A stretch of 4,871 nt of DNA, from positions 1-4,871 of IMG/VR virus record IMGVR_UViG_2636415477_000008; one strand, 5' to 3'. Position 1 is the first letter of the stretch. Each line of letters starts with the position of its first letter. This DNA comes from a virus (lineage: Duplodnaviria; Heunggongvirae; Uroviricota; Caudoviricetes). The notes below the pieces were generated by a model, which was given only the letters and a program-made list of their open reading frames with translations, ran no database searches and was not told where the DNA came from. Shown one piece after another: positions 263-4,871 of this stretch. The position numbers and the translations under genes were made by a program.

Positions 263-278
263 TGACAGTTGCCTGTCA
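263..278. repeat. Perfect inverted repeat TGACAG-ttgc-CTGTCA
   Basis: 6-bp arms with 4-bp spacer; a TTGACA hexamer (262-267) overlaps the left arm. Operator-like dyad or RNA hairpin. Confidence 0.3.
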
Positions 279-454
279 GACTGGGCATTTGTTAAAAAAA
301 TTTCGCATGGTGAATCCCCCTGAGCGGAGGGGCGACTGGTGACGGTATAATCTCTGATTATCAAAACGAGAATGACGCGGGTTTAGTGGCACCGGGCTGA
401 ACTCACCGGGAGGCACCCGGCACCATGTTCATGGTGATACAGAAATGCGGCTTC

Positions 455-479
455 AGCCCCTCTCCGGAGGGGCTTTCTT
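455..479 (+). terminator. Rho-independent terminator
   Basis: AGCCCCTC tccg GAGGGGCT: 8-bp stem, 4-nt loop, followed by the T-rich run TTTCTT. Confidence 0.55.
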
Positions 480-485
480 ATGGAC

Positions 486-3345: not shown

Positions 3346-3420
3346 CGGTGAGTCAGGGTCATCAGTAAAGAGCTGGTGGCCCTTTTGTTGTTGTGAGCTT
3401 CCGAGTACGGGAGACGGGGT

Positions 3421-3636
3421 ATGTACCAGATGGAAAAAATCACAACAGGTGTGTCATACACCACGTCAGCGGTGGGAACGGGCTACTGGTTCCTGCAGTT
3501 GCTGGACAGGGTTTCCCCGTCTCAGTGGGCGGCAATAGGCGTGCTGGGGAGTCTGCTGTTTGGGCTGCTGACATATCTGACTAACCTGTATTTCAAAATC
3601 AGAGAGGACCGTCGTAAGGCAGCGCGGGGAGAGTAA
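3421..3636 (+). CDS. S: Class II holin (S21-like pinholin) with dual-start motif
   Basis: 71 codons. GGGAG (3409-3413) 7 nt upstream of ATG 3421. In-frame Met at codons 1 and 4 (MYQMEK). Two TM segments: a weakly hydrophobic Gly/Ser/Thr-containing TMD1 ([18 protein letters not shown]) and TMD2 ([18 protein letters not shown]); basic C-tail [13 protein letters not shown]. Close resemblance to phage 21 S21 as I recall its sequence. Confidence 0.85.
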
Positions 3637-3640
3637 GGCG

Positions 3641-4276
3641 ATGAATAAACAATACAAACTGGTTGTTAAAGGGATAAATAATTACCCGGATAAGATTACT
3701 GTTACTGTGGCACTGGAAATTGGTGGGTATCCGTCACTGTTGTTGCCAAATGTGGCGATTAGTCTTGACCGTACTGAAGGTGCCACGCTGGAATTTTACG
3801 AAGCTGAGGCGAAAAAACAGGCGAAGCAGTTTTTCATGGATATTGCTGCCGCTTTATGTGAAGGGGATGAGCAGTCGCCGGAAAAGCGCCCCATAATTTT
3901 AGAGGCGCAGGATGTGTTGATAACCTACAGAGGAAAACTACCGGGAATAATTACTGGTTCTCTGAAGACGCCACCGACGGCATTGCGGTCAGAAAACGAT
4001 GATATTGAATCACGCATTGAAAAACTGGAGTGCTATATCGCTGAATTGAAAAAAAGCATCCCAACAAAAAATGAGGTGCTTGCAGCAGATGAAATGAAAG
4101 AAACTATTCTTGATCGCGCGGCGCATCTAAGCTGCGCTTCACGGTTGAAAGAGCATCTTCAGCGGCCTGAAGAAAAACGCCGCGATGAGCAGTTCGCGGC
4201 GTTTTACGATTATTGCATTGAAGTTACTCGCAGGAATTTTGTGAAGGCTTTTGAGGAGAGTAAATCTCTTCAGTAA
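3641..4276 (+). CDS. Hypothetical soluble protein (211 aa) inserted between holin and endolysin; function unknown
   Basis: ATG at 3641, only 4 nt after the holin stop (TAA 3634-3636), with a purine-rich SD GGGGAGAG (3626-3633). Stop TAA at 4274-4276. No TM segment; beta-rich N-terminal half and charged helical C-terminal half (NDDIESRIEKLECYIAELKK...). Visibly more A/T-rich than the flanking genes. I do not recognise the family. Confidence 0.65.
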   Translation: MNKQYKLVVKGINNYPDKITVTVALEIGGYPSLLLPNVAISLDRTEGATLEFYEAEAKKQAKQFFMDIAAALCEGDEQSPEKRPIILEAQDVLITYRGKLPGIITGSLKTPPTALRSENDDIESRIEKLECYIAELKKSIPTKNEVLAADEMKETILDRAAHLSCASRLKEHLQRPEEKRRDEQFAAFYDYCIEVTRRNFVKAFEESKSLQ

Positions 4277-4484
4277 GCTTAATGGCGGACGCTGCAATTA
4301 ATTCAGGAAGGTCCGCAAGGTCATCTGTCAGTGGGAATGATGAAAAATCGGCGGCAGTTCTGTTAAGAATTGCTTTAACTAATTCCTTTTCCTCATCCGG
4401 CAACACGTTGATTAGAGCTACGACTGCTTGCCTGAGTGCGATTAAATCAGCAAAAGTTTGTTTTGGTAGATTTGGATAATCCAT
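4224..4484 (-). CDS. Hypothetical small acidic protein (86 aa), convergent with and 3'-overlapping the 211-aa ORF
   Basis: Minus-strand ATG at 4484-4482 preceded by GAGGTG about 4 nt upstream. Product starts MDYPNLPKQTFADLIALRQAVVALINVLPDEEKE...; stop TAA is the complement of 4224-4226. An alternative upstream ATG (4556-4554) lacks an SD. The protein is more plausible than the antisense + ORF 4282-4479, which is Ser/Ala-rich. Overlaps the 3' end of the 211-aa gene by 53 bp. Confidence 0.4.
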   Translation of the reverse strand: MDYPNLPKQTFADLIALRQAVVALINVLPDEEKELVKAILNRTAADFSSFPLTDDLADLPELIAASAIKLTEEIYSPQKPSQNSCE

Positions 4485-4514
4485 AGTCACCTCTGTGTTT
4501 ATCAGATTGACATA

Positions 4515-4538
4515 CCCTGGCCAGTGCCCACCACTGGC
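4515..4538. repeat. Interlaced dyad symmetries in the intergenic region between the minus-strand ORF start and the endolysin
   Basis: GCCAGTG-cccac-CACTGGC (4520-4538; 7-bp arms, 5-bp spacer), overlapping the 8-bp palindrome CTGGCCAG (4517-4524). Operator-like; no T tract follows, so not a terminator. Confidence 0.3.
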
Positions 4539-4595
4539 GGGGTGAAGGCTTAACATATCCAGGGATTCGGAACCGATAAATCCTGATAAATATCC

Positions 4596-4871
4596 ATGAA
4601 CGCAAAAATCAAATACGGCCTGTCGGCTGCCGTTCTGGCGCTGATTGCCGCAGGGGCTTCTGCGCCTGAAATTCTCGACCAGTTTCTGGATGAAAAGGAA
4701 GGTAACCACACCACGGCATACCGTGATGGTGCAGGTATCTGGACCATCTGCCGTGGTGCCACCCGGGTGGATGGTAAGCCTGTCGTCCCCGGCATGAAGT
4801 TGTCGAAGGAAAAATGCGACCAGGTTAACGCCATTGAGCGTGATAAAGCGCTGGCGTGGGTGGAGAAAAAC
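4596..4871 (+). CDS. R: SAR endolysin (T4/P21-type lysozyme), 5' partial, runs off the window
   Basis: ATG at 4596, with an in-frame TAA 9 nt upstream, so this is the first possible start; 92 codons are present. N-terminal signal-anchor-release-type segment YGLSAAVLALIAAGASAP (Gly/Ala-rich, weakly hydrophobic). Catalytic triad spacing E35-x8-D44-x5-T50 in EGNHTTAYRDGAGIWT, as in P21 R. No recognisable SD upstream. Confidence 0.85.
   Translation, partial: MNAKIKYGLSAAVLALIAAGASAPEILDQFLDEKEGNHTTAYRDGAGIWTICRGATRVDGKPVVPGMKLSKEKCDQVNAIERDKALAWVEKN

What the first reader, a model, noticed from the sequence alone, without database searches (positions are those of the whole stretch)
4224..4538. 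Convergent, 3'-overlapping gene pair with an operator-like dyad upstream of the minus-strand gene
The 211-aa + ORF (stop at 4276) and the 86-aa minus-strand ORF (stop at 4224) overlap tail-to-tail by 53 bp. Transcription of the minus-strand gene would therefore run antisense into the late transcript that must cross this region to express R. The intergenic region upstream of the minus gene contains interlaced palindromes (CTGGCCAG at 4517-4524; GCCAGTG-N5-CACTGGC at 4520-4538) and only weak sigma70-like hexamers (minus strand TTTATC-N17-TATGTT). This looks like a separately regulated antisense-oriented gene, possibly the regulator or antitoxin-like partner of the 211-aa protein, or a brake on endolysin expression.
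Basis: partly seen in the sequence, partly recalled or inferred. Interest (0 to 1): 0.55.

Follow-up and report, generated by a model that had tools for sequence, protein, structure and literature searches.

The report
Antisense accessory gene inside phage lysis operon
Between the holin and endolysin genes of this E. coli lambda-like prophage sits a small, real, backwards-facing gene with its own terminator and probable promoter, always paired tail-to-tail with the end of the neighbouring gene; it looks like an ordinary prophage add-on ("moron") of unknown function, not a demonstrated brake on lysis.

Summary
The 211-aa + ORF (3641-4276) and the 86-aa minus ORF (4224-4484) overlap by 53 bp, and the palindromes are where stated.

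The minus ORF is a real gene:
- It matches phrog_2572 over its full length.
- It occurs in 314 of 5426 complete E. coli genomes.
- Relatives with 39-53% identity exist, some in Salmonella prophages.
- dN/dS is 0.22-0.29 between lineages.

It carries an intrinsic terminator (4174-4205 plus a U-tract) that lies inside the + ORF. Upstream is a module (-35 TTTATC 4575-4580, -10 TATGTT 4552-4557) whose core motifs are invariant or near-invariant in all eight loci aligned, including Salmonella ones.

The block 4168-4600 moves as a unit. Two unrelated antisense genes sit behind the same upstream module in other phages.

The overlap persists in three diverged lineages (53 or 59 bp). The partner is either a DUF1327 fusion or a stand-alone 73-aa ORF.

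The "operator" dyad is weak evidence:
- CTGGCCAG is lost in most haplotypes.
- A 7-bp stem arises by chance about 5% of the time.
- The dyad has no second good copy in a 98.7%-identical complete phage.
- Every homologous leader folds into a 5' hairpin of different sequence.

Best reading: a bor-like moron expressed in lysogens, silenced by late transcription. Function unknown. The antitoxin and lysis-brake ideas are untested.

The parts
276..485 (+). STnc100-type short leader RNA. It marks the start of the Q-dependent late operon that runs through the whole region.
   Evidence: Rfam RF02076, 165.6 bits against a gathering score of 47, E 1.8e-38. The antiterminator Q is annotated just upstream in the 98.7%-identical phage PhiR5_1.
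3421..3636 (+). Class II (phage 21-type) holin S
   Evidence: Pfam Phage_holin_2_1, 112.5 bits. PHROG holin families.
3641..4276 (+). Protein A, 211 aa. It has a DUF1327/YdfR domain (aa 1-112, 3641-3976), a coiled-coil-like middle part, and a conserved 36-aa tail (4169-4276) encoded antisense to gene B's terminator and last 17 codons.
   Evidence: Pfam DUF1327, 141 bits; phrog_2091 and phrog_1085. On the late strand only this frame is open for at least 66 codons in all three lineages. Five of 6 variable sites in 4168-4223 are synonymous third positions of this frame. The tail is 42% identical over 36 aa to a stand-alone 73-aa ORF in a metagenomic Salmonella-type (Gifsy-like) locus, L091.
4174..4205 (-). 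Intrinsic terminator hairpin of gene B. The stem is 12 bp (AAAACGCCGCGA/UCGCGGCGUUUU) with an 8-nt loop. The U-tract runs on to about 4166 on the minus strand. It lies inside the coding sequence of protein A (residues KRRDEQFAAFY).
   Evidence: dG -20.5 kcal/mol, z -3.6. In the commonest haplotype it is followed by U8 (L005). The stem is kept in two other lineages, with two pairs changed on both sides in L090. It lies at the left edge (4168) of the homology block shared between different contexts.
4224..4484 (-). Gene B: an 86-aa acidic (pI 4.3) protein predicted as three helices, family phrog_2572. The last 17 codons overlap protein A. Residues 75-86 (the last 12 of those codons) are non-helical and 78-86 have pLDDT below 50.
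   Evidence: phrog_2572 full length, E 3.6e-50. Annotated by RefSeq (WP_001306174, WP_071528021). Found in 314 of 5426 complete E. coli genomes. No internal stop in 86 of 87 loci. Distant homologues with 39-53% identity. dN/dS 0.22-0.62. AF2 model with helices 8-27, 30-48 and 56-74, pLDDT 69.
4490..4493 (-). Shine-Dalgarno GAGG of gene B, 5 nt upstream of the ATG at 4484
   Evidence: Read from the sequence. The other lineages have TAAGGA at the equivalent place.
4515..4543 (-). The finding's dyad: a 5'-proximal stem-loop of the putative B mRNA (core GCCAGUG-GUGGG-CACUGGC at 4520-4538, extended by CCCC/GGGG)
   Evidence: The leader folds at -25.5 kcal/mol, z -2.7. All seven homologous or analogous leaders form a 5'-proximal hairpin of different sequence. 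The stem is kept in nearly all of the 25 aligned sequences.
4552..4593 (-). Conserved upstream (putative promoter) module: -10 TATGTT (4557->4552), a 17-nt spacer, -35 TTTATC (4580->4575), and the direct repeat ATATTTATCAGGATTTATC (4593->4575). It abuts the ATG of R.
   Evidence: ATATTTATCAGG and TTTATC are invariant, and the -10 is TAT(G/T)(T/G)T, in 8 loci. These include Salmonella-type loci not next to R and two loci with unrelated antisense cargo. Both hexamers are invariant in the 25 aligned sequences, while the spacer has 7 variable sites. It matches only 7 of 12 consensus positions and was not called by the scan.
4596..4871 (+). 5' part of the endolysin R, with an N-terminal hydrophobic signal-anchor-like segment; cut by the window end
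   Evidence: Pfam Phage_lysozyme; annotated lysozyme R / rrrQ in homologous loci.
4282..4479 (+). 65-aa + ORF antisense to B: judged not to be a gene
   Evidence: It shares third codon positions with B, so it stays open as a by-product (and the frame arithmetic). Its cross-lineage BLOSUM score is lower than B's. Its ATG is TTG in 6 of the 25 aligned sequences. It has no family hit.

Best explanation
What it is. Window 4168-4595 is a self-contained accessory transcription unit (a "moron") placed antisense inside the Q-dependent late/lysis operon of a lambda-like E. coli prophage, as bor is in phage lambda.

Components, read on the minus strand:
- a weak sigma-70-like promoter module that abuts R's start codon
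- a Shine-Dalgarno sequence and the 86-aa acidic three-helix protein B
- 18 nt after the stop, a Rho-independent terminator

Relation to protein A. The terminator and B's last 17 codons are also read on the other strand, as the C-terminal 36 aa of the DUF1327 protein A. This A-tail always travels with B, either fused to DUF1327 or as a stand-alone 73-aa ORF.

Proposed working (inferred, not shown):
1. In the lysogen the late operon stops at tR', and only B is made from its own promoter.
2. After induction, Q-modified polymerase reads through the embedded terminator and B's promoter.
3. That produces A and R, while convergent transcription and antisense pairing shut B off.
4. B and the A-tail would therefore be expressed in opposite states.

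The biochemical function of B is unknown.
For: Shown:
- B is coding. Evidence: phrog_2572 over full length; homologues with 39-53% identity in E. coli-type and Salmonella prophages; dN/dS 0.22-0.29 between lineages; the best-conserved of six frames.
- B has a terminator hairpin plus U-tract directly after its stop, with z -3.6. The stem is kept in all lineages, and two pairs are changed on both sides in one of them.
- The homology block shared among different genomic contexts is 4168-4600. That is promoter module through terminator.
- The core motifs of the upstream module are invariant or near-invariant in 8 loci. These include loci not adjacent to R and loci with unrelated cargo, phrog_1853 and phrog_2411. 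The hexamers are invariant while the spacer varies.
- The unit is present or absent among close relatives. Most Stx phages have only a short DUF1327 gene in this gap.
- G+C is 0.44 against 0.54-0.55 in the flanks.
- The overlap is conserved at 53 or 59 bp, and the A frame is open in three lineages.
- A viable phage, PhiR5_1, carries the same arrangement.

Precedent:
- Lambda bor and lom are expressed in lysogens.
- A prophage antisense RNA directed against late genes has a demonstrated function (PMC7067206).
Against: - There are no expression data of any kind.
- The promoter hexamers match only 7 of 12 consensus positions and were not called by the scan.
- The same upstream sequence is retained in phages that lack any antisense cargo. 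It may therefore be conserved partly as R's 5' leader.
- Seven of 87 loci have ACG in place of B's ATG, and 4 have a 2-bp insertion at the stop. B is therefore dispensable.
- Within-lineage dN/dS is only 0.33-0.62.
- With four sequences, the terminator covariation does not exceed the shuffle controls.
Confidence: 0.6

Rival explanations
1. Functional two-gene switch. B and the A-tail would be a cognate protein pair (B active in the lysogen, neutralised by late-expressed A). Alternatively, B's mRNA would act as an antisense regulator of the late transcript, lowering expression of A, R or downstream genes, or excluding superinfecting relatives.
For: - The pair is co-inherited in four different contexts, with the overlap kept at 53 or 59 bp.
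- The A frame is kept open in all lineages, including as a stand-alone 73-aa ORF whose start is coupled to the Rz stop.
- Five of 6 substitutions in A's non-overlapping tail are synonymous.
- The complementary stretch between B mRNA and late mRNA is at least about 380 nt by geometry.
- Precedents are lambda OOP/cII and the STnc6030 exclusion RNA (PMC7067206).
Against: - Co-inheritance is partly trivial, because the A-tail is physically the antisense of B's 3' end and terminator.
- DUF1327 C-termini are very variable: 103 to 268 aa among the ORFs read here, and a 296-position PHROG profile (phrog_1085). This suggests opportunistic read-through fusions.
- In Salmonella the pair lies after Rz, so no effect specific to R is implied.
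- No interaction or RNA data exist.
Confidence: 0.2
2. The dyad at 4517-4538 is a protein operator that represses or activates the minus-strand promoter.
For: - It is a perfect 7-bp inverted repeat with a 5-nt loop, interlaced with an 8-nt palindrome.
- It lies about 7-26 nt downstream of the putative start point, a position where repressors can act.
- The sequence GTGGTGGG(A)CACTG is partly shared between the E. coli and Salmonella lineages.
Against: - The chance probability is about 0.05 for the stem, and 0.45 such 8-nt palindromes are expected.
- CTGGCCAG is lost in 19 of the 25 aligned sequences.
- There is no second good copy in 50 kb of PhiR5_1, immunity region included. The only other match needs 2 mismatches and lies in tail gene J.
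- The dyad symmetry is not kept in Salmonella.
- Other lineages and other cargos have hairpins of unrelated sequence at the same place. That points to RNA structure rather than a shared binding site.
Confidence: 0.12
3. There is no minus-strand gene. The region is just late-operon sequence, and either the + ORF 4282-4479 is real or the region is non-coding spacer.
For: - The + ORF is open in all lineages.
- Codon-position counts cannot separate the two frames, because their third positions coincide.
Against: - B is the only frame open end to end, and it has the highest cross-lineage substitution score.
- dN/dS is 0.22-0.29 between lineages.
- B has a Shine-Dalgarno sequence. The + ORF has none, and its ATG is not conserved.
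- The terminator's U-tract is on the minus strand (U8 in the main haplotype).
- The + ORF stays open simply because B has few Tyr, His and Gln codons (frame arithmetic).
Confidence: 0.05

Closest known systems
Lambda bor (and lom) type morons: autonomously transcribed accessory genes in the late region of lambdoid prophages
   Same: - A small gene in or next to the lysis cassette, oriented against late transcription.
- Its own terminator and putative promoter.
- Patchy presence among close relatives and lower G+C.
- In Salmonella the B cassette sits between Rz and the terminase genes, the slot bor occupies in lambda (that placement of bor is from my own knowledge; expression of bor and lom in lysogens is from PMC7067206).
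   Different: - B is a cytoplasmic-looking acidic helical protein, not a lipoprotein.
- It has no sequence or fold relation to Bor.
- Its terminator and 3' end lie inside a conserved partner ORF on the other strand.
- Expression in lysogens has not been shown.
3'-overlapping convergent antisense pairs in phages (lambda OOP RNA against cII; prophage BTP1 STnc6030 against late genes)
   Same: Convergent transcripts overlap at their 3' ends. The prophage-expressed partner is antisense to a lytic-cycle mRNA (PMC7067206).
   Different: The antisense partner here encodes a protein under purifying selection. No RNA-level effect has been tested.
DUF1327 / YdfR family (the gene between holin and endolysin in the Qin prophage and Stx phages)
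   Same: The + ORF's first 112 aa are a clear member, at 141 bits against a cutoff of 25. It lies in the same position between S and R.
   Different: K-12 YdfR is 103 aa and overlaps rrrQ, with no antisense gene. Here the protein carries a coiled-coil extension plus the cassette-encoded tail. The family has no known function.
Pfam DUF1823 (the label given to B in the PhiR phage records)
   Same: A weak local similarity over 30 residues.
   Different: It scores 15.3 bits against a gathering score of 25, E 0.023. That is below threshold, so B should not be filed there.

Membership tests
Moron (autonomous accessory transcription unit in a prophage) | Own transcription terminator downstream of the gene | tested here: met
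   A 12-bp G+C-rich stem plus U-tract lies 18 nt after B's stop, z -3.6. It is conserved in three lineages, with two pairs changed on both sides.
Moron (autonomous accessory transcription unit in a prophage) | Own promoter upstream of the gene | tested here: inconclusive
   The module with TTTATC-N17-TAT(G/T)(T/G)T has invariant or near-invariant core motifs in 8 loci. It matches only 7 of 12 consensus positions, was not called by the scan, and there are no expression data.
Moron (autonomous accessory transcription unit in a prophage) | Present or absent among otherwise similar phages, with atypical composition | tested here: met
   Only 5 of 368 matching phage records carry the full arrangement. 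314 of 5426 E. coli genomes carry B. G+C is 0.44 against 0.54-0.55.
Moron (autonomous accessory transcription unit in a prophage) | Expressed from the repressed prophage | not testable with these tools
   This needs strand-specific RNA-seq or a reporter in a lysogen.
PHROG 2572 | Full-length profile match | tested here: met
   E 3.6e-50, residues 1-86 on profile positions 1-86. The family has no annotated function.
Pfam DUF1823 | Score at or above the gathering threshold (25 bits) | tested here: not met
   15.3 bits over 30 residues.
Pfam DUF1327 / YdfR (the + ORF) | Score at or above the gathering threshold (25 bits) | tested here: met
   141.1 bits, residues 1-112.
Type II toxin-antitoxin or known anti-phage defence system | Co-directional two-gene operon whose members hit a known toxin, antitoxin or defence family | tested here: not met
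   The genes are convergent. There are no significant hits in Pfam, NCBIfam or PADLOC for either protein beyond DUF1327.
Type I TA / cis-antisense RNA pair | The antisense partner is a non-coding RNA and the target encodes a small hydrophobic toxin | tested here: not met
   B is under purifying selection as a protein. The A-tail is hydrophilic, with 8 acidic and 7 basic residues in 36. The 3' overlap itself is present.
Repressor operator | Dyad conserved in sequence across homologous loci, and usually repeated at other controlled promoters of the same phage | tested here: not met
   Half of the dyad is lost in 19 of the 25 aligned sequences. There is no second good copy in PhiR5_1. Unrelated hairpins sit at the same position in other lineages.

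The most novel reading that the evidence does not exclude
The B / A-tail cassette would be a portable reciprocal switch. B (protein, mRNA or both) acts in the lysogen, for example as an antisense or protein-based silencer of leaky or superinfecting late transcripts of related phages. The late-expressed A-tail, encoded on the reverse of B's own terminator and 3' end, neutralises it on induction. The terminator inside a coding sequence and the fixed 53/59-bp overlap would then be functional design, not packing.
Probability: 0.15. Interest if true: 0.65.

Novelty: new member of a known kind. Interest (0 to 1): 0.35.

Why it matters
- It gives a defined anatomy (upstream module, leader hairpin, ORF, terminator) to an uncharacterised gene family carried by about 6% of complete E. 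coli genomes, by some Salmonella prophages, and by uropathogenic strain CFT073.
- The gap between holin and endolysin in phage 21/Stx-type lysis cassettes turns out to be a slot where unrelated antisense genes are exchanged behind one constant upstream module.
- RefSeq annotates the partner DUF1327 genes here as truncated pseudogenes, although the full ORFs are intact.
- If B proves active in lysogens, it is a candidate lysogenic-conversion or phage-exclusion factor.
- As it stands, this is an ordinary kind of prophage feature with one neat structural twist.

Tried and rejected
- Function by homology: Pfam, NCBIfam, PADLOC and PDB sequence searches gave nothing for B, and only DUF1327 for A.
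- Function by fold: AF2 models of B reached only pLDDT 65 (single sequence) and 69 (11-sequence alignment). Foldseek against PDB and BFVD gave no match with E below 0.9.
- Full HMMER scan of 1.8 billion representatives: it found two long TPR/CHAT-type repeat proteins (P0021, P0022). I judge these compositional or helical-repeat matches, not homologues.
- Common origin of the three antisense cargos (phrog_2572, 1853, 2411): hhalign gave probability below 1%.
- Codon-position test to separate B from the + ORF 4282-4479: uninformative, because their third positions coincide. Cross-lineage substitution scores and dN/dS were used in its place.
- Species-representative genome scan: only one locus, in E. 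coli.
- Literature searches for DUF1327, YdfR, the RefSeq accessions, the PHROG number and the PhiR phages found nothing relevant. A K-12 promoter catalogue lists only the promoter upstream of essQ.
- Covariation statistics on the terminator: with four sequences they do not exceed the shuffles.
Full report
**Context**

The window is the late region of a lambda-like E. coli prophage. Its parts, in order:
- an STnc100-type pR'-tR' leader (276-485, 165.6 bits)
- a NanS-p-like SASA esterase (707-2695)
- DUF1378 and DUF826 genes
- a phage 21-type holin (3421-3636)
- a DUF1327/YdfR protein of 211 aa (3641-4276)
- the 86-aa minus-strand ORF (4224-4484)
- the start of endolysin R (4596 onward)

The S-R segment queried (3400-4871) is 98.7% identical to the isolated phage PhiR5_1, which has Q upstream and lambda-type structural genes. 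A 621-bp stretch (3980-4600) is 99.8% identical to a prophage of a STEC strain.

**Observation**

This covers the 53-bp tail-to-tail overlap (4224-4276), CTGGCCAG (4517-4524), GCCAGTG-N5-CACTGGC (4520-4538), and the minus-strand TTTATC-N17-TATGTT (4580-4575 and 4557-4552).

**Is the minus ORF (B) a gene?**

Yes. The evidence:
- It matches phrog_2572 end to end, E 3.6e-50.
- RefSeq annotates it, including in CFT073.
- It occurs in 314 of 5426 complete E. coli genomes.
- It has no internal stop in 86 of 87 loci.
- Exhaustive and profile searches found relatives of 89-108 aa with 39-53% identity. Some are in Salmonella enterica prophages.

The + ORF 4282-4479 shares third codon positions with B, so position counts cannot separate the two frames. 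Other measures can:
- Between lineages, B has the highest substitution score of all six frames (for example 146 against 88, and 208 against 150). It is the only frame open end to end.
- dN/dS is 0.22-0.29 between lineages and 0.33-0.62 within them.
- B has GAGG 5 nt before its ATG. The + ORF has no Shine-Dalgarno sequence, and its ATG is TTG in 6 of the 25 aligned sequences (24 locus haplotypes plus the window reference).

The DUF1823 label in the phage records is below Pfam's threshold, at 15.3 bits against 25.

B is acidic (pI 4.3). It is predicted as three helices followed by a non-helical tail from residue 75, at pLDDT 69. That tail covers the last 12 of the 17 overlapping codons; the other 5 lie at the end of helix 3.

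**A terminator inside the partner gene**

Eighteen nt after B's stop, the minus strand forms AAAACGCCGCGA / UCGCGGCGUUUU (4174-4205), followed by UCUUC. The fold is -20.5 kcal/mol with z -3.6. In the commonest haplotype the stem is followed by U8.

The stem is kept in the two other lineages. Two pairs are changed on both sides in L090. With four sequences this does not exceed the shuffle controls.

The hairpin encodes residues KRRDEQFAAFY of protein A. On the + strand only four T's follow it. Late transcription is Q-antiterminated (established lambda biology, from my own knowledge), so read-through is expected.

**The unit that moves**

In E. coli genomes, one class of hits covers exactly window 4168-4600. 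That runs from the terminator's U-tract to R's ATG, joined to different upstream sequences. Protein A is accordingly 211, 183, 176, 171 or 169 aa in different prophages, always ending in the same tail.

RefSeq marks these A genes as truncated YdfR pseudogenes, although the ORFs are intact.

G+C is 0.44 in the DUF1327-B segment against 0.54-0.55 in the flanks.

**The upstream module**

I aligned the 115-135 nt before the start codon in 8 loci:
- two E. coli haplotypes
- two loci of the P0020/P0024 lineage
- two Salmonella-type loci that are not next to R
- two loci where unrelated antisense genes (phrog_1853 in Stx2 phage 86, phrog_2411 in strain SF-166) occupy the same slot

The alignment shows invariant ATATTTATCAGG-n-TTTATC, a 17-nt spacer, then TAT(G/T)(T/G)T. 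Among the 25 aligned E. coli sequences both hexamers are invariant, while the spacer has 7 variable sites.

This is the pattern expected of a real but weak promoter. It matches only 7 of 12 consensus positions and was not called by the scan. It is also retained in phages with no antisense cargo, so part of its conservation may serve R's leader. The motif occurs once in PhiR5_1.

**The dyad**

- By chance, a stem of 7 bp or more appears in 5% of composition-matched 111-mers. An 8-nt palindrome is expected 0.45 times.
- CTGGCCAG is CCCGCCAG in 19 of the 25 aligned sequences. The GCCAGTG/CACTGG(C/T) stem persists.
- The dyad has no second good copy in PhiR5_1.
- Folding the putative leaders of all seven loci gives, in every case, a stem-loop starting within about 8 nt of the predicted 5' end. 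The sequences differ: GCCAGUG..., ACCAGUG..., GGCAGG..., AUCCGAACCA..., GCCAG..., GCCUG....

Conserved structure with varying sequence favours an RNA 5' stem-loop, such as an mRNA-stabilising hairpin, over a shared operator. In the window and in L005, a second hairpin partly pairs with the Shine-Dalgarno sequence.

**The partner**

On the late strand only the A frame is open for at least 66 codons in all three lineages. The other two frames each carry at least 5 stops.

Five of 6 variable sites in A's non-overlapping tail (4168-4223) are synonymous third positions. By my own calculation, the binomial P is about 0.02.

The partner takes different forms:
- In Salmonella-type Gifsy-like prophages it is a stand-alone 73-aa ORF. 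Its ATG overlaps the stop of the Rz-like DUF2514 gene. It lies between Rz and the DUF1441 terminase gene and overlaps the 93-aa B homologue by 59 bp.
- Its last 36 aa are 42% identical to the window's tail.
- In the third lineage the partner is a 243-aa DUF1327 protein, a 116-aa ORF in a DUF1327 gene that looks frameshifted, or a 144-aa protein. The overlap is again 59 bp.

The pair is therefore co-inherited. Part of that is unavoidable, because the tail is the reverse complement of B's own 3' end and terminator. DUF1327 C-termini are in general very plastic: K-12 YdfR (103 aa) overlaps rrrQ's start by 4 nt, leaving no intergenic gap, so its 3' end appears to read through this module.

**Mechanism**

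Shown: the anatomy of a minus-strand unit, the coding status of B and of the A-tail, the conserved overlap, and the mobility of the block.

Inferred: B is transcribed from its own weak promoter in the lysogen, while the late operon is terminated at tR'. After induction, Q-modified polymerase reads through the embedded terminator and through B's promoter. That makes A and R and suppresses B by collision and antisense pairing.

Lambda bor and lom, and the BTP1 antisense RNA STnc6030, are precedents for lysogen-expressed units in or against late genes (PMC7067206).

The function of B is unknown. No family, solved structure or fold match was found. Seven loci with ACG in place of ATG, and four with a 2-bp insertion at the stop, show that B is dispensable.

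**Verdict**

This is a real, conserved, antisense-oriented accessory gene with a neat embedded terminator and a co-travelling partner tail. In kind it is a moron.

The operator, antitoxin and lysis-brake ideas are not supported by anything testable here.

Noticed in passing
window 276-485 (+), weaker copy at 37-210: Strong Rfam STnc100 match (165.6 bits), preceded by TTGACA at 256-261. This is probably the short pR'-tR' leader of the late operon. A second, sub-threshold copy (30 bits) lies just upstream.
   Followed up: partly
window ~3969-3975 and ~4528-4533; L004 2060-2075: The short (114-aa) DUF1327 arrangement in most Stx phages looks like a deletion of the coiled-coil part, gene B and half the dyad. 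The apparent end points are two CCACC(G/A) microhomologies. The upstream module next to R is left behind, there with an even better -10 (TATATT).
   Followed up: partly
L003 2551-2865 (-) in Stx2 phage 86; L103 567-839 (-) in E. coli SF-166: Two unrelated antisense genes (phrog_1853, 104 aa; phrog_2411, 90 aa) occupy the same holin-endolysin slot behind the same upstream module. The second also overlaps the DUF1327 gene tail-to-tail, by 35 bp. The slot behaves as a cargo-exchange site.
   Followed up: partly
L104 3055-3366 (E. coli K-12 Qin prophage): K-12 ydfR (103 aa) overlaps the start of rrrQ by 4 nt, leaving no intergenic gap. Since window 4552-4600 has a match next to rrrQ in many genomes that lack B, its 3' end appears to run through the sequence that elsewhere forms the upstream module (not aligned directly). 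DUF1327 C-termini seem to be set by whatever lies downstream.
   Followed up: no
L005, L006, L007, L008, L089 (RefSeq records): PGAP annotates the long DUF1327 genes as 'YdfR family, incomplete, missing C-terminus' pseudogenes of 112 codons. In L005 and L006 the ORFs were read and are intact at 183 aa.
   Followed up: partly
window 4485-4511 (minus strand): A second predicted hairpin in B's leader pairs part of the Shine-Dalgarno sequence (GAGGUGAC with GUCA/AUCUG). It is conserved in the main E. coli haplotype and might limit translation.
   Followed up: no
Stx2 phage 86 has TACCGCTGGCGG at the same place. This is recalled from memory, not tested. Two extra bases break the operator spacing, and it may well be coincidence.
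   Followed up: no
window 3355-3383 (+): A terminator-like hairpin (12 pairs plus TTTGTTGTTG) lies just upstream of the holin gene on the late strand. Late transcription would have to read through it.
   Followed up: no
L076-type loci (7) and L054-type loci (4) among the 87: Natural B variants occur. In one type ATG is replaced by ACG at the start. In the other, a 2-bp insertion at the stop removes B's stop and also changes protein A's tail, shortening the overlap to 21 bp. These are ready-made natural mutants for phenotype comparison.
   Followed up: no
window 3641-4595: G+C drops to 0.44-0.45 across the DUF1327 gene and the B cassette, against 0.54-0.55 in the holin, esterase and endolysin genes.
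   Followed up: yes
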